Made by a program: the position numbers and the translations under genes
The notes under the pieces: model-generated
Told to the model about the DNA's origin: nothing
Databases searched by the model: none
Seen by the model: only the letters and a program-made list of their open reading frames with translations
Part shown: positions 23,153 through 29,798 of the stretch, one piece after another
Position numbering within the stretch: position 1 is the stretch's first letter
How the letters are laid out: each line of letters opens with the position of its first letter
DNA from: Hymenobacter fodinae
GTDB lineage: Bacteria; Bacteroidota; Bacteroidia; Cytophagales; Hymenobacteraceae
Direction: 5' to 3'
Assembly (NCBI RefSeq): GCF_004745825.1
Contig: NZ_SRLA01000005.1
Location: 97,106-129,105, forward strand
DNA length: 32,000 nucleotides

Positions 23153-23322
23153 ATATCACCTCAAAAAACTGCCTATTCGTCCCTATTGCTCCGTGTCATT
23201 GGCGGCCACGACCGGCCTTGTCGATAGGGACTTGGTATGCCGGGTCGATAGGCGCGACCCCCAAGACGGGCGGCGTGGCACGCTTTGATGATACCACAGC
23301 CACCAGGCAGTGCAAGGGGATT

Positions 23323-23535
23323 TTACCGACGCAGCCGACCGTATGGGATCGGCAGCTGCTTGCCGGCCTCGTGCCGGTCGGTAACAGCGAACAAGTTGCG
23401 CAGGAAGCGCTGATTGCTGGCCGTGTCATTCGGATTGCGTGCGGCCTCGACCTGTTCGAGCTGATCGGCGATAGGGGAGTAGTCCAGGCCCGTGAGGTGC
23501 TGACGGTTGTTGAGCCAGTTGGCGGTGATGGACAT
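23323..23535 (-). CDS. hypothetical protein, first gene of the packaging operon
   Basis: 70 aa. SD AAAGGA lies 8 nt upstream of the ATG. GC content is backbone-like. Confidence 0.45.
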   Translation of the reverse strand: MSITANWLNNRQHLTGLDYSPIADQLEQVEAARNPNDTASNQRFLRNLFAVTDRHEAGKQLPIPYGRLRR

Positions 23536-23567
23536 GCATGATCCTTTCTGTGAGGACGGAAAGCATC

Positions 23568-23598
23568 AGCATAGCAAGTGAACGGCGGGATATGTCAA
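23568..23598 (-). promoter_or_regulatory. candidate sigma70-type promoter for the packaging/late operon
   Basis: The minus strand has TTGACA (23598-23593), a 19-nt spacer, then TATGCT (23573-23568), about 30 nt upstream of the 70-aa ORF. The -35 is perfect but the spacer is long. Confidence 0.35.
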
Positions 23599-23713
23599 GG
23601 GATAATTTGCTGAAAACAAACACAATGGTCATCATTGTGTCTGCGTTCTAGGCAGTTAGCGCCTATTACATCCACTATTGCCGTATAAGGTTTAATTAAT
23701 AGATTGCGCGTCA

Positions 23714-24475
23714 ATGGAACCCCAGGCACACATCATCGAGCTGAAATTCGAGGGCAATGGCATCAAGCCCTCGAAAGTGAAAGCCAGCGAAGTGGCAGAG
23801 CTTATCATGAGCTTTGAAGGGGCCATCATGTCGGTGATGAAGCAGCAGCACGCCAGTGTCAGTGACACGGAGGTGTTTATCAGCTTCGAGGAAATCAAGG
23901 ATCAAAGCCTTAGCCTCAAGTGCCTGGCCAATAAGGCGAGGGAATATGTGTTCCCGGCGTTGCTGGCTATCACAACCTCGTTTTCCAACAATGCTTACTC
24001 GGGTCTGCCTTCGGGCGCGATCGAGGACCTAAAGAAGATTACCAAGTTCGCTCGGCGCCATGAGTGCGATGGGGTATGGATCCAGGATGGCGAACGCGTT
24101 GCCAGCTTCGACAAGGACACGGAGATCAACATCTCAGAGCAAGAGTTCCTGCGCGGCGATACCACGATTTATGGTCAGGTATTGAAGGCCGGCGGTGACA
24201 ATCCGCGTGTAACGCTCAAGATTGACGACGACTATACTGTCAGCTTTGACGTGCAGCGCGAGATAGCCATCAAGTTGGCTAGCAACCTGTACAAGGAAGT
24301 CGGCATGACAGGAAACGCACGCTGGCACCGGAAAACCTACAAAGTGGTTGATTTTCGCCCAGAGCGTTTGATTTTCATTGAGCAGGCACCCTTGACCGAC
24401 ACATTCAATCAGCTCGGCAAACTGTTTGGCGGCAGTTTAGAGGCAACCAACACTAAAAGCCTTTATCTCGACTAG
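23714..24475 (+). CDS. hypothetical 253-aa protein, partner of the PIN protein (no recognised domain)
   Basis: Clean ORF on the strand opposite to the phage backbone, in a region of intermediate GC. An in-frame TAA lies 7 codons upstream of the ATG, and no SD is present. The stop is 5 nt before the PIN gene ATG. Confidence 0.6.
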   Translation: MEPQAHIIELKFEGNGIKPSKVKASEVAELIMSFEGAIMSVMKQQHASVSDTEVFISFEEIKDQSLSLKCLANKAREYVFPALLAITTSFSNNAYSGLPSGAIEDLKKITKFARRHECDGVWIQDGERVASFDKDTEINISEQEFLRGDTTIYGQVLKAGGDNPRVTLKIDDDYTVSFDVQREIAIKLASNLYKEVGMTGNARWHRKTYKVVDFRPERLIFIEQAPLTDTFNQLGKLFGGSLEATNTKSLYLD

Positions 24476-24480
24476 ACGCT

Positions 24481-25167
24481 ATGGGTAAGCTTGTAATGAT
24501 CGACAGTCAGATCTTCATATGGGGCATCAAGGGCATGGCTTCTGAGGGGCAAGAGTTCCGCATTGGCCCAGCCCAGCGCTTCATACAGTTTCTGGATGAC
24601 GAGAAAAGCAAGCTCCTGTTGCCAGTCCCGCAGATGGCCGAGTTGCTGTCTTGCGTGCCCCCTGATCAGCAGGTAGAGATCAAGCGCTTTTTCGATAAGC
24701 GGTTCCAGGTCCGGCCTTTTGACGAGCTGGCTGCTGAGAAGTGCGCCGAGCTGCTGTATCACTCATTTAACGATCAAGAGCTAATCGAATACCGTAACGA
24801 GCATAAGGTCCCCAAGCAAAAGATCAAGTATGACTGCATGCTGGTGGCGATGGCAATCACTAACCGCGTCAGCAAGATCTACTCCGACGATAAGGACCTG
24901 AAGAAATTCGCAGCTGGGCAGATCGACGTAGTGAAGATGCCCGACATTGCCCCCGCGCCAGTACAGCAGACGTTGCAGTTTGATGGTGATCCGGATACAT
25001 GGCGCAGGAGAGCTGAACACTCAGCCGTACCTGCCACTGAGGGGGAGCCAGGCAAAGGCATTGTTATCGAGCAACGACTGGATAGGTTCATGTCGGAGAT
25101 TGCTGGTAAGCCAATTGTTTCGGGCAATCTAAGGTTTGGGGGCGATCAGGTGCCACCTCAAGCTTAG
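24481..25167 (+). CDS. PIN-domain nuclease with an approximately 80-aa C-terminal extension
   Basis: 228 aa. The N-terminal beta-strand with Asp (LVMIDSQIFIWG), a central acidic helix (VPQMAELLS), YDCMLVAMAI and IYSDDKDL match the acidic residue pattern of PIN/VapC folds. The C-terminal tail has no recognisable motif. Confidence 0.7.
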   Translation: MGKLVMIDSQIFIWGIKGMASEGQEFRIGPAQRFIQFLDDEKSKLLLPVPQMAELLSCVPPDQQVEIKRFFDKRFQVRPFDELAAEKCAELLYHSFNDQELIEYRNEHKVPKQKIKYDCMLVAMAITNRVSKIYSDDKDLKKFAAGQIDVVKMPDIAPAPVQQTLQFDGDPDTWRRRAEHSAVPATEGEPGKGIVIEQRLDRFMSEIAGKPIVSGNLRFGGDQVPPQA

Positions 25168-25422
25168 GAGTAAGAGGGAGGGGAGATCGCGTTTTATTCA
25201 AAGGCCACGTAGGCGGTCTGATTGGCAGCGACGGAGGGGCAAGCCAGATGGATGCCCAGCGAATATAGGTAATGCCTTTGCTGTTGGGGCGTTCCTTCTA
25301 AGGGGGGAATTCGCTGTGCGCTATGCAGTTACGAGCTATTTTCAAAGGGGCTGGATTAGCTACTAAACTATTTAGTAAGTTTGCGATTGTGGCTATGTAG
25401 CCCCAAGGATGGCATATATAAA

Positions 25423-27510
25423 ATGCCATTGTTTTACAAAAAGCAGCTTGCAAAACGCGACATGAGCGAGGATTTAGTTCAATCGGCGACACATCAAATT
25501 GGTCACTACGGATATATCCGGCTCGGCTCAACTCGATTAAGTCAATTAAAGCGCAGTAAATATATTCAAGGCAAACTTGATATTGCTGACGAAGCCCGCA
25601 AACCCGATGGTATTGTTTTTCTTCCCAGCGGTGGGATAAAGGCTGTAATTGAGGTTAAGCAGCCAAAGGAATTAGTGGCAAAAGAACTGCCATCTGTTAT
25701 TGATCATTACAGCCAAATTGCCAAAGCTGTTTGCAATGTGTTGATTATTACGGATGGAAAAAATTCATACTGGATCAATCCACACACAAAAGAATATATA
25801 AAGGATGAGACAGGTCACGATATAAGCTTACTATTTGATCCTAAAGCGATCGAAGGTAAAACGCTTTCGCTAGAGAAGGCGAACAAGATTTCCTCGTTAA
25901 TTGAGCAGGCCGCGTTCTGTATTAACGAAACAAATAATCATATCACCCCGCTCAATGTTATCGATCCGAGCGGATTAGCACGAACTGTTTGGCAAAAAAT
26001 TTGGATTAATACCGGTAAAGAGCCTGAAAAATGTTTGTATAATGTCGTTGAGATATTTCTCTTTAAATTTCTCAGCGATACAGGCGTTTTGATTGGAAAT
26101 TATGGTTTTCAGCGTGTTCTTGATCTGATCATCAAGGATGGTCCGGTCGATGCGCTAAACCACTATGCCAATATTTCAAGGAAGAAGATTAAGGCTCTTT
26201 TCCCTCCAGGCACGGACAATACCACCGTTATCAACGGCACTATCTTCGTCAACGAGCAGGGCGACCCCAACACCTCGCAGGCAAGTCTTTTTGCCGAGGT
26301 CATTCAGCTGTTCCAGAACTTCGATGACAAGCATGGCTCCATGCGCCATATCAACCGGGAGTTTAAGACCCGTCTGTATGAGTCGTTCTTGCGTCAGGAG
26401 GCAGGCGTAAAATCGCTAGGCCAATATTTTACCCCGCGAAATGTTGTGCAGGCAGTCGTTAAAATGTCCAGCGCATCGTCACTCAAGGACGGCGCCAGGA
26501 TCTGCGATCCATTTTGCGGTGTGGGCGGCTTTGTTTTGGAAACAATAGTCGAAAACAAGAATATTTTCAATCAATATACGCCGAGTAACGGCAAAATTGA
26601 GCCTAAAATTATTCTAAAGGGGTACGACAAAGGTTCTGACGAAAAAGAAGATGAGCGTACAATTATATTGGCCAAGGCCAATATGCTCATTTATTTCTCT
26701 GACCTGCTGGCGCAATACAACAGCGAGGCTCACCTCAAGGAGTTTTCTGAAAAAGCATTTAATGCTGTTTTTGAATTGCTGAGGTCTAATCTGGGAACAT
26801 TCGGCCGTCACGACGATGAGCCATATGATCTGATATTGACTAATCCTCCCTATGTAACGAGCGGATCAGCAAGTCTTAAAAATTCAATCGAGTTTGGTGG
26901 TGCAAATAAATTCCTGCCATTAGGTCGTGGTACGGAAGCCTTGGCTATTCAATGGATCGTTAATAACCTGAAAGTAGATGGTGAAGCATTGGTTATTATT
27001 CCTGATGGTTTGCTTAACCAAGCATCTATTCTCAACTACCTGACAGAAAACTGTTTCATTAGAGGGGTCGTCGCTTTGCCAAGCCGTACTTTCTATTCAA
27101 CACCCAAGAAAACATATATTCTTGTTATAAATAAAAAGGAGTCGAAATCCGACATTCAAGAGGAACCTGTATTTACATACTTGGTTTCCGAGATTGGCGA
27201 ATCACGAGATGCTAGACGGGTGCCAATTAAAGACAATGATTTGACGGAAATGGAAATGCTATTCCGACAGTTCAATGCGACACGGAAGACCTTTGTTTCA
27301 TCATCTCCACGTTGCAAAGTTTTCGATTTTGATGTTTTCAAAAACAGCAAAAATTGGCTGATCGACCGTCTCTGGACGAAAGACGAAAAAAAGGCGCTCG
27401 GTATTGTTGATGAGCGGGTCGAGGTTGATGAGGCTGGCTTCCTTGCATTGGCTAAAGAAGCAAATGACGAGATCCAAAAGTTTTTGACGACTTACAATGG
27501 CAACTCTTAA
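25423..27510 (+). CDS. fused restriction endonuclease (PD-ExK) and N6-adenine DNA methyltransferase; BcgI-A-like Type IIB R-M subunit
   Basis: 695 aa from ATG 25423; a TTG at 25381 is also in frame. N-terminus: KPDGIVFL...AVIEVKQ (PD...ExK). Middle: HsdM_N-like EKCLYNVVEIFLFKFLSD. MTase motifs: GQYFTPR (X), DPFCGVGGF (I) and LILTNPPY (IV). GC is low, roughly 40% by eye. Confidence 0.8.
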   Translation: MPLFYKKQLAKRDMSEDLVQSATHQIGHYGYIRLGSTRLSQLKRSKYIQGKLDIADEARKPDGIVFLPSGGIKAVIEVKQPKELVAKELPSVIDHYSQIAKAVCNVLIITDGKNSYWINPHTKEYIKDETGHDISLLFDPKAIEGKTLSLEKANKISSLIEQAAFCINETNNHITPLNVIDPSGLARTVWQKIWINTGKEPEKCLYNVVEIFLFKFLSDTGVLIGNYGFQRVLDLIIKDGPVDALNHYANISRKKIKALFPPGTDNTTVINGTIFVNEQGDPNTSQASLFAEVIQLFQNFDDKHGSMRHINREFKTRLYESFLRQEAGVKSLGQYFTPRNVVQAVVKMSSASSLKDGARICDPFCGVGGFVLETIVENKNIFNQYTPSNGKIEPKIILKGYDKGSDEKEDERTIILAKANMLIYFSDLLAQYNSEAHLKEFSEKAFNAVFELLRSNLGTFGRHDDEPYDLILTNPPYVTSGSASLKNSIEFGGANKFLPLGRGTEALAIQWIVNNLKVDGEALVIIPDGLLNQASILNYLTENCFIRGVVALPSRTFYSTPKKTYILVINKKESKSDIQEEPVFTYLVSEIGESRDARRVPIKDNDLTEMEMLFRQFNATRKTFVSSSPRCKVFDFDVFKNSKNWLIDRLWTKDEKKALGIVDERVEVDEAGFLALAKEANDEIQKFLTTYNGNS

Positions 27511-28585
27511 AAATTTCGCGGTAGAGGAGCTTTTCACCCCAACACGCGGAAAAAGCAAATACACCCGTGGCTATGCAGATAAGCATCCGGGTGAGTACCC
27601 CGTGTATTCTGCAGCCTTAGAGGCGCCACTTTGCTACATCGACCATTACGATTACGATGGGACCTATTTGACATGGACTGCCAATGGCTATGGTGGCCGT
27701 ATTCAGATCAAATCAGGGAAGTTTTCAATCAACGGTGACCGCGGCATTCTTATTCCGGTTAATGAGGATCATCCCAACCTGGATTACATCAAATATTTCC
27801 TGCAACCTGTTCTGATCGGGCAAGCTGTCGGTAGGGTCGTTGACGGTAAAAAGAACGAGTACACTAAGGTCGGCCCAGAGGTTGTGGCCAACTCGATCAT
27901 CACTCTGCCGGTTAATGAAGAGGACAACATAGACCACGACGCCATCCACGAGAAAGGCGAAAAGATCAAGCAGATACTCGCTCTTCAAGACTCGATGAAG
28001 AAGCAAGTCGAGCAACTTGACGACGCAGAAATTGTGATTGAGGTCAATGAGCCTAGCAAAACAATCAACCTTGGAGACACGCAGTATTTCACGCTTTCTA
28101 TCGGCGACCGGGTGCTGATAAAGGATGGATTGGGCGAGGGTGTACCGGCTTATAGCGCCAATGTAAAGGTGCCAATAAGCTACATTGCTGAATCCAACCT
28201 CTCTGATTTTGATAGACCATCAATCCTTTGGGGAATTGATAACACACTCTTTTTTTATAATATAATTCCTGAAAATGTCGTTTTCGCAACGACAGATCAC
28301 TGTGGAAGAGCTTTAATCAATGTTCCCGACTTAGATGCAGAGTACGTTTACTACTACCTGCAAGCTACCAGGCTGGAGTATGGTTTTGATCGCGTGTTTC
28401 GATCAAGCTTGGAAAACATGCGGAGTATCGTAGAAATAAAGGTGCCGCTTGATGAAAAAGGTAATTTTTCATTGAAGCGACAGAAAGAAATTGCTGAACG
28501 TTACAAAAGGGCAAATGCTCTTAAGGAAAGCATCATAGAAAAGCTTGATGTCTTGCAGAGCGTTGCCGTAGACATAAATCAGTAG
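27497..28585 (+). CDS. HsdS-like specificity subunit (BcgI-B-like), two target-recognition domains
   Basis: 362 aa. The start overlaps the upstream gene by 14 nt. There are two TRD-sized halves, each followed by a helical conserved spacer (KIKQILALQDSMKKQVEQL and KRQKEIAERYKRANALKESIIEKLDVL). Confidence 0.8.
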   Translation: MATLKNFAVEELFTPTRGKSKYTRGYADKHPGEYPVYSAALEAPLCYIDHYDYDGTYLTWTANGYGGRIQIKSGKFSINGDRGILIPVNEDHPNLDYIKYFLQPVLIGQAVGRVVDGKKNEYTKVGPEVVANSIITLPVNEEDNIDHDAIHEKGEKIKQILALQDSMKKQVEQLDDAEIVIEVNEPSKTINLGDTQYFTLSIGDRVLIKDGLGEGVPAYSANVKVPISYIAESNLSDFDRPSILWGIDNTLFFYNIIPENVVFATTDHCGRALINVPDLDAEYVYYYLQATRLEYGFDRVFRSSLENMRSIVEIKVPLDEKGNFSLKRQKEIAERYKRANALKESIIEKLDVLQSVAVDINQ

Positions 28586-28601
28586 CCCCACTTGATCTGA
28601 A

Positions 28602-28634
28602 ACAGCCCCAGGACCTGGTCAAGGGGCTGTTTTT
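28602..28634 (+). terminator. rho-independent terminator ending the island operon
   Basis: ACAGCCCC (28602-28609) pairs with GGGGCTGT (28623-28630), followed by TTTTT. It overlaps the last codons of the convergent minus-strand gene. Confidence 0.65.
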
Positions 28635-29164
28635 ATTTGCTGCTGCTCGTACCTGTCCATATAATCCTGCTCGGCCAGAGTAAGCGCAAAAGGGCCCTCC
28701 CTTGATCGTTCAACCAGCCGCTGATACACTCGCCCACACATCGGCTTAACCGAAGGATCCAGTATCTCGACGATGTCGGCCGGCGTCGGTATCTCCTTGC
28801 CGGTTTTCAGGTACTGACGGAAGGCGTTGCGCACCTGGTCGATGTTGTACTCGCCTAGCATCCATTGAAAACCGGCATCACGCACAGCCGTGACGTCGGC
28901 TGCTTCACCGTATTTCCTCAGCATCGTGTAGGTCTGAGTGAGCAAGTCCGATAACTGGTCTTGGCTGGTCAAGCAATTCTTGATCGGGGTTCCTGCCGCC
29001 GTTTGCTTTCCAGCGGGCTGCACGATCGAGCTTGATTTTTTCGGTGATTTCTCGGGCAATATCGGTCTGTGACTTGCGGCCACCATAGCCGTTTCCGTTC
29101 GGTTCTCCGGCAGAGCCGCCAGGTCGGCCAGCACCTTGTTGATAGTGGTTTTGACGGTTTCCAT
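28619..29164 (-). CDS. replication-module protein (helicase-loader position; function unknown)
   Basis: 181 aa from ATG 29164, with a strong SD AAAGGAGG 5 nt upstream. Third-codon-position GC is high in this frame. The C-terminal part is globular (AGFQWMLGEYNIDQVRNAFRQYLKTGKEIPTPADIVEILDP). Confidence 0.55.
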   Translation of the reverse strand: METVKTTINKVLADLAALPENRTETAMVAASHRPILPEKSPKKSSSIVQPAGKQTAAGTPIKNCLTSQDQLSDLLTQTYTMLRKYGEAADVTAVRDAGFQWMLGEYNIDQVRNAFRQYLKTGKEIPTPADIVEILDPSVKPMCGRVYQRLVERSREGPFALTLAEQDYMDRYEQQQIKTAP

Positions 29165-29798
29165 TGTAGCCTCCTTTGATTTCAAATACACCCGTCCAGC
29201 CGCGCTCGATGGATTGCTGCAGCACGGCTGCCGGCTGATGGCCTTGCTGCCGTAGGGTGTCCAGCTTGATGATGATGAGTTGCTTGGCGCGGGCGGTAAA
29301 CTTGGCGCCGCGCATCCGGCAGAAGTCCCGCCAGTCGTCGGCCGGCAGCCACGCGGGTATATCTATAAGGTTCTTAACCTTCTTATCCTTATTACCTTCT
29401 TTATTAGTGCCCTGTCTGCTGCCTGTCTGCTGCTCGTCTGATGTATTATCAGGTGTCTCGTCTGCTGTCTCGCCAGTCTGATATTCTTCGTATTTACAGA
29501 TAGTTATAGTGCTGTTTCTGTTGCTCGTTTCCACGATGATATTTCCATCTTCCTGCAACTCATTTATAAACCGCTCGGTCTTGCCTCTCGACCACTTCCA
29601 GCGCTGAGCGAGCCGGACTTGGGACCAGCCACACTGACCACGCTTCACTGTGATCCGCTGTCCGGCCACCCGGATAAAACCGTCTTTGAAGTTTGCGAGG
29701 AGAATAAGATCGACCCATGCCTGCCCACGGGTAAACGGCTCCGAAAGCCATAAATCGCTTTCAGCCATCTTTCGGTGTAGCTTCAACCAACCTGACAT
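28905..29798 (-). CDS. replication initiator / replisome organiser (lambda O-like architecture)
   Basis: 297 aa. The N-terminal winged-helix-like pattern WLKLHRKMAESDLWLSEPFTRGQAWVDLILLAN...VKRGQCGWSQVRLAQRWKWSRGKTERFINELQEDGNI is common in phage replication organisers. An acidic/Thr-rich linker is encoded by the iterons, and the C-terminal domain ends GWTGVF. The last 90 or so codons overlap the next gene out of frame. Confidence 0.6.
   Translation of the reverse strand: MSGWLKLHRKMAESDLWLSEPFTRGQAWVDLILLANFKDGFIRVAGQRITVKRGQCGWSQVRLAQRWKWSRGKTERFINELQEDGNIIVETSNRNSTITICKYEEYQTGETADETPDNTSDEQQTGSRQGTNKEGNKDKKVKNLIDIPAWLPADDWRDFCRMRGAKFTARAKQLIIIKLDTLRQQGHQPAAVLQQSIERGWTGVFEIKGGYNGNRQNHYQQGAGRPGGSAGEPNGNGYGGRKSQTDIAREITEKIKLDRAARWKANGGRNPDQELLDQPRPVIGLAHSDLHDAEEIR
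29411..29482. repeat. iteron cluster (candidate phage replication origin) inside the replication gene
   Basis: Five copies of an 11-mer with core GTCTG(C/A)T: CCTGTCTGCTG at 29411 and 29422 (perfect tandem), CTCGTCTGATG at 29433, CTCGTCTGCTG at 29457 and GCCAGTCTGAT at 29472. AT-rich tracts flank the cluster (29355-29410 and 29481-29560). Confidence 0.55.

What the first reader, a model, noticed from the sequence alone, without database searches (positions are those of the whole stretch)
23640..28640. Opposite-strand, compositionally foreign accessory island between the replication and packaging modules
Four plus-strand genes interrupt an otherwise uniform minus-strand phage. GC drops from about 60% to roughly 50% for the first pair and roughly 40% for the R-M pair (hand counts of a few lines only), which suggests at least two separate acquisitions stacked at one hotspot. 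Both blocks encode nucleases, so the site looks like a prophage defence hotspot. The island ends in a terminator shared with the convergent replication operon.
Basis: partly seen in the sequence, partly recalled or inferred. Interest (0 to 1): 0.65.

Follow-up and report, generated by a model that had tools for sequence, protein, structure and literature searches.

The report
Two-cassette accessory island in a prophage
A prophage carries, between its replication and DNA-packaging genes, two separately acquired two-gene cassettes: a BcgI-like (type IIB) restriction-modification enzyme and an uncharacterised PIN-nuclease pair. This is an ordinary kind of phage accessory island whose only new element is the PIN pair.

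Summary
Four + strand genes (23714-28585) sit between minus-strand rep190 and TerS. GC falls from 0.60 to 0.53 (pair A) and 0.44 (pair B).

- **Pair B (R-M).** It is not an R gene plus an M gene. It is a 682-aa fusion of an N-terminal PD-(D/E)xK nuclease (invariant D49, E64, K66) with an HsdM-like N6-adenine methyltransferase. An overlapping two-TRD HsdS-like gene follows, and there is no HsdR. That is the BcgI/type IIB layout.
- **Pair A (PIN).** A 253-aa protein with an OB-like C-terminal domain and no Pfam or PADLOC match is followed 5 bp later by a divergent PIN nuclease (invariant D8, E54, D118, D137). The pair is a fixed unit in all eight other loci examined.
- **Separate acquisitions.** Each pair occurs alone elsewhere; pair B is Tn7-like cargo in L042. 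DNA homology starts exactly at each start codon. Two stacked acquisitions are supported.
- **Caveats.** Only pair B is a true compositional outlier, because pair A matches the phage's own early region. The terminator hairpin is real, but it has a good U-tract only on the island strand.
- **Defence hotspot: not shown.** The nearest relatives (about 70% identity) carry different, unannotatable content at this junction.

Overall this is a new member of a known kind, of modest interest.

The parts
23536..23713 (.). Left boundary: 178-bp AT-rich divergent intergenic region between orf70 (-) and isl1 (+). It contains a perfect 8-bp inverted repeat, ACACAATG-N5-CATTGTGT, at 23620-23640, which is a candidate operator.
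   Evidence: GC 0.433, against 0.62 for orf70. Sequence read. The fold containing this stem has z = -2.16. Homology to independent pair-A copies begins only at 23714.
23714..24475 (+). isl1: 253-aa partner of the PIN protein. It has an N-terminal alpha/beta domain and a C-terminal OB-like beta-barrel. It belongs to an unnamed family and is the proposed antitoxin or sensor.
   Evidence: No hit in Pfam, NCBIfam or PADLOC. AF2 model has pLDDT 82. PDB Foldseek gives only local OB-fold matches: IF1, eIF1A, LysRS-N, RPA32, ExoVII. BFVD gives near-full-length matches to uncharacterised phage proteins, the best being a DUF6575 protein at E = 2.5e-11. Family size is 1200 representative clusters, all about 250-270 aa.
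24481..25167 (+). isl2: 228-aa divergent PIN-domain nuclease with a variable, probably disordered C-terminal tail from about residue 155. It is the proposed toxin or effector.
   Evidence: Pfam PIN at 21.6 bits, below the 23.6 cutoff. PF01850 is precomputed for about half the homologues. D8, E54, D118 and D137 are invariant in 19 sequences. phrog_21691 matches at 1.5e-14. A PDB profile search found no relative. DNA homology to L043/L044 ends at 24942.
25168..25461 (.). 294-bp spacer between the two cassettes. It is not homologous to any independent copy of either cassette. It holds the only + strand TAnnTTTG (Bacteroidota -7-like) motif in the window, at 25376-25383, 78 nt upstream of the isl3 ATG.
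   Evidence: The motif count is not above chance (1 observed, 1.4 expected), so the promoter assignment is only a lead. No Rfam family or tandem repeat was found.
25462..27510 (+). isl3: 682-aa RM fusion. It comprises an N-terminal PD-(D/E)xK nuclease (about residues 1-125), a helical connector (about 127-300), and an HsdM-like gamma-class N6-adenine methyltransferase (NPPY at 461-464).
   Evidence: Pfam N6_Mtase at 1.9e-30. R46-K47-P48-D49, E64-x-K66 and T97-D98-G99 are invariant in 20 homologues from four phyla. The N-terminal model has pLDDT 87.8. Top Foldseek hits are BpuSI, DrdV, Hjc, BsaXI and other PD-(D/E)xK nucleases, all at E >= 0.012. The start at 25462 is supported by the collection's own 682-aa call, by homologue lengths of 680-683 aa, and by the onset of homology.
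27497..28585 (+). isl4: 362-aa HsdS-like specificity subunit with two target-recognition domains. It overlaps isl3 by 14 nt.
   Evidence: Pfam Methylase_S at 8e-10 on residues 4-150. PADLOC Specificity_I models hit both halves (5-106 and 215-350). The same overlapping pair occurs in L042, L092/L093 and the contig.
28599..28633 (+). Right boundary: GC-rich hairpin followed by UUUUUAUUU on the + strand, a candidate intrinsic terminator for the island. The stop codon of convergent rep190 (28619-28621) lies in its loop, and its right arm encodes the last residues of rep190.
   Evidence: (I10) and 50: dG -21.8, z -2.56 on +; dG -20.4, z -1.69 on -, followed only by UUUCAGAUC. The L034 rep190 homologue has no such hairpin, and its C-terminus differs.

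Best explanation
The region is a prophage accessory ('moron'-type) island made of two independently mobile two-gene cassettes. They are stacked head-to-tail on the strand opposite the phage's early and late operons and closed by a hairpin terminator at the convergent junction with the replication genes. Cassette B (isl3 + isl4) is a BcgI-like type IIB restriction-modification enzyme. The HsdS-like subunit, with two TRDs, would read a bipartite site and recruit two copies of the fusion protein. The fusion's HsdM-like domain would methylate adenine N6 on host and prophage DNA, and its N-terminal PD-(D/E)xK domain would cut unmethylated incoming DNA at a fixed distance from the site. No ATP-driven HsdR motor is involved. 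Cassette A (isl1 + isl2) is a toxin-antitoxin-like or abortive-infection-like pair. In it, a divergent PIN nuclease is held in check by, or activated through, an upstream 253-aa partner whose OB-like domain probably binds nucleic acid. Shown here: the gene layout, the composition break, the domain and motif content, the fixed pairing, the independent distribution of the cassettes, and the hairpin. Inferred: enzymatic activity, expression from the lysogen, and protection against superinfecting phages or prophage stabilisation.
For: Layout and composition. Cassette B: N6_Mtase at 1.9e-30 and Methylase_S; MTase_I and Specificity_I PADLOC models with no REase model; invariant PD49...E64-x-K66 across four phyla; confident N-terminal model whose best-ranked structural neighbours are the nuclease and connector parts of BpuSI, DrdV and BsaXI, plus Hjc, RecU and HsdR nuclease domains. 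BcgI is defined by a 71.6-kDa A subunit with an N-terminal PD...EXK motif (Glu53) plus MTase, and a 39.2-kDa HsdS-like B subunit (PMC3592470). BsaXI is an (RM)2S assembly (PMC11997821). The pair occurs alone in a housekeeping neighbourhood, as cargo next to Tn7-like tnsA/tnsB/tniB/tniQ, and in other viral contigs. Cassette A: invariant D8/E54/D118/D137; partner first with a 3-9 bp gap in all eight other loci examined (L032, L033, L038-L041, L043, L044), next to a resolvase, an integrase, an IS1595 transposase or housekeeping genes; OB-like fold. Cassette limits: homology to independent copies starts at 23714 and at 25461/2 and does not enter the spacer or the flanks. Terminator. Accessory status: none of about 90 TerS-related loci carries any of the four genes.
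Against: Nothing here is biochemical. Foldseek support for the nuclease fold is weak (best E = 0.012, TM about 0.24). Pair A has no PADLOC hit, no relative among solved PIN structures, and no relative found in 2.9 million viral contigs, so its defence or TA role is purely inferential. Its partner is about three times larger than classical VapB antitoxins and has no recognised DNA-binding antitoxin domain. No promoter could be assigned with confidence. Pair A's GC matches that of the neighbouring early genes, so it may be an old resident rather than a recent import. No close relative exists to show an empty site.
Confidence: 0.7

Rival explanations
1. isl3 + isl4 is a solitary (orphan) M.S methyltransferase, not a restriction enzyme. 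The phage would use it to methylate its own DNA and escape host restriction, and the N-terminal domain would be a non-catalytic relic.
For: All sequence-level hits are to type I HsdM and HsdS. Public annotations call the family 'HsdM family methyltransferase' or 'N-6 DNA methylase'. Phage-borne methyltransferases are common (general knowledge). Structural support for a nuclease is statistically weak.
Against: The PD...ExK triad and flanking residues are invariant across Bacteroidota, Proteobacteria, Actinobacteria and Myxococcota at 57-79% overall identity, and the middle residue of ExK varies as expected for a functional motif. The window copy retains all of them. The opposite-strand, terminator-insulated placement suits lysogenic rather than lytic expression. 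The family also travels as Tn7-like cargo, which is typical of defence genes.
Confidence: 0.15
2. isl1 + isl2 is not a conflict or TA module. It is instead a nucleic-acid-processing enzyme pair (an OB-fold RNA/ssDNA-binding subunit plus a PIN nuclease) used by the phage or the cell for RNA or DNA metabolism.
For: PIN domains and OB folds act together in housekeeping RNA and DNA processing (general knowledge). Several copies lie among housekeeping genes, for example next to dnaE in L040. No defence or TA database match exists. Pair A's GC equals that of the phage early genes.
Against: The distribution is patchy, with unrelated neighbourhoods in every case and adjacency to a resolvase, an integrase or an IS1595 transposase. 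The bicistronic partner-first arrangement is characteristic of TA modules. The pair is absent from the related phages and was not found in the viral collection, so it is not a phage core function.
Confidence: 0.2
3. The four genes form a single functional four-gene system acquired in one event.
For: All four lie on one strand with no predicted terminator between isl2 and isl3 and a single strong hairpin at the end. The best homologues of both pairs are in Hymenobacteraceae (Pontibacter, Sabulibacter, Adhaeribacter).
Against: In all eight pair-A loci examined elsewhere and all four fully resolved pair-B contexts, the other pair is absent. GC3 differs by about 0.2 between the pairs. A 294-bp non-homologous spacer separates them.
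Confidence: 0.05
4. The compositional break is an assembly chimera, or simply normal intra-phage variation, rather than horizontally acquired cargo.
For: Phage early regions are often lower in GC than structural modules. Here the early region is 0.51-0.55 and pair A is 0.53.
Against: Pair B sits at z of about 12 in tetranucleotide distance, with GC3 0.44-0.50. Both flanks belong to the same phage (TerS/TerL on one side, rep190/DnaD-like on the other), as in the L034 prophage. Pair B has 69% DNA identity to a Tn7-associated copy precisely over the genes.
Confidence: 0.03

Closest known systems
BcgI (type IIB restriction-modification, A2B)
   Same: Two genes. The A-like subunit carries PD...ExK near the N-terminus (BcgI Glu53; here D49/E64/K66) followed by a gamma-class N6-adenine MTase. 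The B-like subunit is HsdS-like with two TRDs. Sizes are similar (71.6 + 39.2 kDa for BcgI; 682 + 362 aa here). No HsdR motor is present (PMC3592470).
   Different: No sequence comparison with BcgI itself was possible. The recognition site, cleavage geometry and cofactor needs are unknown. This copy is prophage-borne.
BsaXI (type IIB, (RM)2S; PDB 8W0P, 8W2P)
   Same: Domain order is REase, multi-helical connector, MTase, with a separate S subunit. BsaXI chain A is among the top structural neighbours of the isl3 N-terminal model (PMC11997821).
   Different: The match is weak (E = 0.098). BsaXI's RM subunit is about 914 residues, with extra 'knob' and 'paddle' domains that a 682-aa protein has no room for. 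There is no sequence-level hit.
Type I R-M methyltransferase core (HsdM2-HsdS, e.g. EcoKI, EcoR124I)
   Same: The MTase half and the S subunit are closest in sequence to HsdM and HsdS.
   Different: There is no HsdR gene here or next to homologues. The nuclease is fused to the N-terminus of the MTase, where the N-terminal domain of HsdM would normally be.
VapBC-type type II toxin-antitoxin modules
   Same: The operon is bicistronic with the partner first and a 5-bp gap. The second gene is a PIN domain with the four conserved acidic residues. The distribution is patchy and associated with mobile elements.
   Different: The partner is 253 aa with an OB-like fold and no RHH, AbrB, HTH or Phd antitoxin domain. 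The PIN protein is 170-230 aa with a variable tail and has no detectable relative among solved VapC structures.
Prophage- and MGE-encoded defence cargo (Vassallo et al. 2022, PMC9519451; P2/P4 hotspots, from my own knowledge)
   Same: Accessory genes with nuclease domains sit at a module boundary, transcribed against the phage operons. Content at this junction varies among relatives.
   Different: No recurrence of recognised defence systems at this locus could be shown in relatives.

Membership tests
Type IIB R-M, two-subunit (BcgI-like) | One polypeptide carries both a PD-(D/E)xK endonuclease domain and a gamma-class N6-adenine methyltransferase domain. | tested here: met
   P48-D49, E64-x-K66 are invariant. 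N6_Mtase matches at 1.9e-30, with NPPY present. The N-terminal fold ranks with BpuSI, DrdV, BsaXI and Hjc, although only at E >= 0.012.
Type IIB R-M, two-subunit (BcgI-like) | A separate adjacent HsdS-like specificity subunit with two TRDs. | tested here: met
   Methylase_S matches at 8e-10. PADLOC Specificity_I models hit both halves. The gene overlaps isl3 by 14 nt.
Type IIB R-M, two-subunit (BcgI-like) | No ATP-dependent translocase/HsdR partner. | tested here: met
   No such ORF lies in or next to the island. Homologous pairs stand alone in three other contexts.
Type IIB R-M, two-subunit (BcgI-like) | [quoted passage not shown] | not testable with these tools
   This requires biochemistry.
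Type IIB R-M, two-subunit (BcgI-like) | Sequence homology to a characterised type IIB enzyme. | tested here: inconclusive
   A PDB profile search gives only HsdM and TaqI hits and no BsaXI hit.
Type I R-M | HsdR (SF2 helicase plus nuclease) encoded alongside HsdM and HsdS. | tested here: not met
   No HsdR lies in the island or the window flanks. PADLOC gives MTase_I and Specificity_I hits only.
MADS (methylation-associated defence system) | MAD2 methyltransferase equivalog, plus multiple further mad genes. | tested here: not met
   NCBIfam MAD2 scores 53.6 bits against a cutoff of 720. Only two genes are present.
VapBC-type type II TA | PIN toxin with four conserved acidic active-site residues. 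| tested here: met
   D8, E54, D118 and D137 are invariant in 19 sequences. The Pfam PIN match is weak for this copy, at 21.6 bits against 23.6.
VapBC-type type II TA | Small upstream antitoxin with a DNA-binding domain (RHH, AbrB, HTH or Phd). | tested here: not met
   isl1 is 253 aa, matches no such Pfam domain in any of 21 family members, and has an OB-like fold.
VapBC-type type II TA | Toxicity of the PIN protein that is neutralised by the partner. | not testable with these tools
   This requires expression experiments.
Known anti-phage systems in PADLOC-DB v2 (for pair A) | A match to any component HMM. | tested here: not met
   isl1 and isl2 match 0 families at E <= 0.01.
Prophage defence hotspot | Alternative defence cargo at the same locus in related phages. 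| tested here: inconclusive
   Related prophages L034 and L001/L045 have different genes at this junction, including opposite-strand ORFs abutting TerS, but none can be annotated as defence. The wider family is uninformative. No relative closer than about 71% identity was found.

The most novel reading that the evidence does not exclude
The isl1 + PIN pair is the founding example of an undescribed, widespread two-gene conflict system (about 1200 representative clusters at 50% identity, with no Pfam or PADLOC model). In it, an OB-fold protein senses phage nucleic acid, or acts as an unusually large antitoxin, and controls a divergent PIN RNase. In this prophage it would provide abortive-infection defence alongside a type IIB R-M.
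Probability: 0.3. Interest if true: 0.55.

Novelty: new member of a known kind. Interest (0 to 1): 0.33.

Why it matters
It adds one more case of a temperate phage stacking independently mobile nuclease cassettes at the early/late module boundary, here in a poorly studied Bacteroidota-type phage lineage. Two practical points follow. First, the 680-aa 'HsdM family methyltransferase' proteins, with more than 3000 homologues, appear to be BcgI-like restriction-modification fusions. Public annotation names them plain methylases, and PADLOC's models score them only as a methylase plus a specificity subunit. Second, the 250-aa + PIN pair is a sizeable unnamed family that would be cheap to test for toxicity and anti-phage activity.

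Tried and rejected
- **Exact-protein look-ups** of TerS, isl2, isl4 and P0004 found nothing.
- **Closer phage relatives.** INPHARED megablast gave only 60-110-bp chance-level matches. TerS scans of viral, genome and metagenome collections found nothing closer than 67-71% identity, so no empty site could be defined. The rep190 scan gave one locus.
- **Flanking repeats.** No direct repeats or att-like sequences flank the island, and the window has no tRNA.
- **Promoter and terminator scans.** The sigma-70 consensus scan was at or below shuffle expectation and missed the real hairpin. The Bacteroidota -7 motif occurs once, which is not above chance.
- **Non-coding elements.** Rfam found nothing credible; the mir-15 hit at 23.7 bits, against a gathering score of 57.3, is chance. 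No tandem repeats were found.
- **MADS and type I membership** were rejected.
- **DUF6575 lead.** A structural match to a phage DUF6575 protein, a domain reported in a defence system by Vassallo 2022, could not be confirmed by sequence in any of 21 family members.
- **PIN profile against the PDB** found no relative.
- **Opposite-strand ORFs upstream of TerS** in ten other loci were a primase and a helicase in L012, and otherwise unannotatable or shadow ORFs.
- **The 76-aa ORF at 25136-25366** in the spacer has no family hit and was treated as spurious.

Full report
**Observation.** The window holds a siphovirus-type prophage inside a 496-kb bacterial contig (P0001). Its genes include TerL and TerS, a tape measure, a tail fibre, DnaD-like and RusA-like proteins, and a cro-like/Erf-like divergent switch. 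From about 1.8 to 30.4 kb nearly all genes are on the minus strand. The exceptions are four + strand ORFs:
- isl1, 23714-24475
- isl2, 24481-25167
- isl3, 25381/25462-27510
- isl4, 27497-28585

GC is 0.599 in the 3.5-23 kb backbone, 0.528 in isl1 + isl2 and 0.436 in isl3 + isl4. GC3 is 0.70-0.86, 0.65-0.69 and 0.44-0.50 respectively. Tetranucleotide distance from the backbone peaks at z = 11.9 over isl3/isl4. One qualification applies: pair A is compositionally the same as the phage's own early region at 28.6-32 kb (GC 0.51-0.55), so only pair B is an unambiguous outlier.

**Cassette B (isl3 + isl4).** The protein collection's own call for isl3 is 682 aa and homologues are 680-683 aa, which places the start at the ATG at 25462.
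- Residues of about 304-611 (331-638 in the longer 709-aa ORF that was scanned) match N6_Mtase at 1.9e-30, and isl4 is an HsdS-type subunit with two TRDs.
- No HsdR is present here or beside homologues.
- An alignment of 20 homologues from four phyla shows invariant R46-K47-P48-D49, E64-x-K66 and T97-D98-G99. The middle residue of ExK varies, as expected for a PD-(D/E)xK nuclease motif.
- The N-terminal 310 residues model at pLDDT 87.8 as an alpha/beta domain followed by a helical connector.
- No Foldseek hit reaches E <= 0.001, but the ranking is coherent: BpuSI, DrdV, Hjc, BsaXI, restriction-endonuclease-like proteins, RecU and HsdR.
- By sequence, only HsdM and TaqI are detected in the PDB.

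This is the layout that defines BcgI: an A subunit with an N-terminal PD...EXK motif (Glu53) plus MTase, and an HsdS-like B subunit, assembled as A2B (PMC3592470). It is also the layout of BsaXI, an (RM)2S enzyme (PMC11997821). I therefore read cassette B as a type IIB-like R-M system rather than an 'R-M pair' of separate genes. PADLOC models hit it only as MTase_I plus Specificity_I, and sources name it a methylase.

**Cassette A (isl1 + isl2).**
- *isl2.* It is a divergent PIN protein. The Pfam PIN match is 21.6 bits, below the 23.6 cutoff, PF01850 is recorded for about half of its homologues, and D8/E54/D118/D137 are invariant. No relative exists among solved structures.
- *isl1.* It matches nothing in Pfam, NCBIfam or PADLOC. 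Its model (pLDDT 82) has an N-terminal alpha/beta domain and a C-terminal beta-barrel. The barrel matches OB folds only locally and weakly: IF1, eIF1A, LysRS-N, RPA32 and ExoVII. Against viral models it matches uncharacterised phage proteins over nearly its full length, the best being a DUF6575 protein at E = 2.5e-11. DUF6575 was reported in a defence system (PMC9519451), but no sequence-level link was found.
- *Family size.* A profile search finds 1200 representative clusters, almost all about 250-270 aa. All are unnamed or 'hypothetical', including one from a gammaproteobacterium.
- *Pairing.* In all eight other loci examined, the isl1-like gene is followed after 3-9 bp by the PIN gene (L032, L033, L038-L041, L043, L044). 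The neighbourhoods are unrelated, some next to a resolvase, an integrase or an IS1595 transposase. Eleven of the 20 isl1 homologues share a contig length with a listed PIN homologue.

This is the behaviour of a mobile toxin-antitoxin-like or abortive-infection-like module, although the partner is unlike any classical VapB.

**One acquisition or two.** The pairs occur without each other everywhere else examined. Pair B is found alone among housekeeping genes, directly after a Tn7-like tnsA/tnsB/tniB/tniQ set, and in other viral contigs. DNA homology to independent copies starts at 23714 and at 25461/2, which are the start codons. It does not extend into the 294-bp spacer or the phage flanks. 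Together with the GC3 difference, this supports two stacked cassettes. The best homologues of both pairs are in Hymenobacteraceae. The phage's nearest relatives are a Dyadobacter prophage (L034) and other 43-44% GC elements. The likely host is therefore a high-GC Bacteroidota member, which is an inference.

**Hotspot test.** No relative closer than 67-71% (TerS) exists in the phage, viral, genome or metagenome collections, and none carries any island gene. In L034 the same rep190-to-TerS junction holds about 6 kb of other genes. These comprise an HNH gene and small same-strand ORFs, plus three opposite-strand ORFs, one of them (342 aa) abutting TerS in a lower-GC patch. L001/L045 also has a small opposite-strand ORF at that position. 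None can be annotated as defence. In more distant TerS relatives, the opposite-strand ORFs are replication genes or cannot be annotated. The junction is variable, but a defence hotspot is not demonstrated.

**Boundaries and signals.**
- *Left boundary.* A 178-bp AT-rich (GC 0.43) divergent intergenic region contains a perfect 8-bp inverted repeat at 23620-23640.
- *Right boundary.* A hairpin lies at 28599-28633 (dG -21.8 kcal/mol, z -2.56). It starts 14 nt after the isl4 stop and is followed by U5AU3 on the + strand. The rep190 stop codon lies in its loop, and on the minus strand only UUUCAGAUC follows.
- *Origin of the hairpin.* The L034 homologue lacks this hairpin, and its C-terminus differs in exactly this stretch. 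The hairpin therefore belongs to the island junction rather than to the ancestral replication operon. It terminates the island convincingly and the convergent operon only plausibly.
- *Other elements.* There are no flanking direct repeats, tRNAs, Rfam families or tandem repeats.

**Verdict.** This is a real, well-delimited accessory island of a familiar kind. The R-M cassette is a new member of the BcgI-like type IIB class, membership being architectural rather than biochemical. The PIN pair belongs to a sizeable undescribed family and is the only component with real discovery potential. Interest is modest.

Noticed in passing
window 28905-29191 (- strand); L034 3445-3707; L031 9825-10075: The DnaD-like ORF (28905-29798) and rep190 (28619-29191) overlap out of frame by 287 nt, and the same overlap exists in two related phages. 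Both frames are conserved between the window and L034: the DnaD-frame tail is 57% identical and ends HD[AV]EEIR* in both, and the rep190-frame N-terminus is 60% identical. By contrast, the DnaD-like N-terminal 200 aa are only 27% identical. Nucleotide identity peaks at 0.70-0.82 inside the overlap. This is a candidate conserved dual-coding region or programmed-frameshift product.
   Followed up: partly
window, whole length, compared with L001, L031 and L034: The prophage is about 60% GC in its structural genes. Its closest relatives, at 67-72% amino-acid identity in TerS and TerL, are only 43-44% GC, and one lies in a Dyadobacter genome. One phage lineage therefore spans hosts of very different base composition.
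   Followed up: partly
L042 964-9075: A close homologue of the isl3 + isl4 pair (77% and 56% identity) sits directly downstream of Tn7-like tnsA, tnsB, tniB and tniQ genes. It is probably cargo of a Tn7-like transposon.
   Followed up: partly
L094 6001-8616; P0016 (866 aa): Some members of the fusion family are about 870 aa, with part of the specificity subunit (Methylase_S) fused to the C-terminus. The family therefore spans both RM+S and RMS-like architectures.
   Followed up: no
window 23323-23535 (-) and 23153-23322: orf70, a 70-aa ORF with phage-like composition (GC 0.62, GC3 0.80), is the only gene between TerS and the island and has no family match. In L034 this interval instead holds about 6 kb of small genes. 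The window phage seems to lack the usual set of small genes ahead of the terminase.
   Followed up: no
window 24943-25167: The C-terminal 75 or so residues of the PIN protein are not conserved in any homologue. The tails vary in length and sequence and look disordered, and DNA homology to the closest copies stops at 24942.
   Followed up: no
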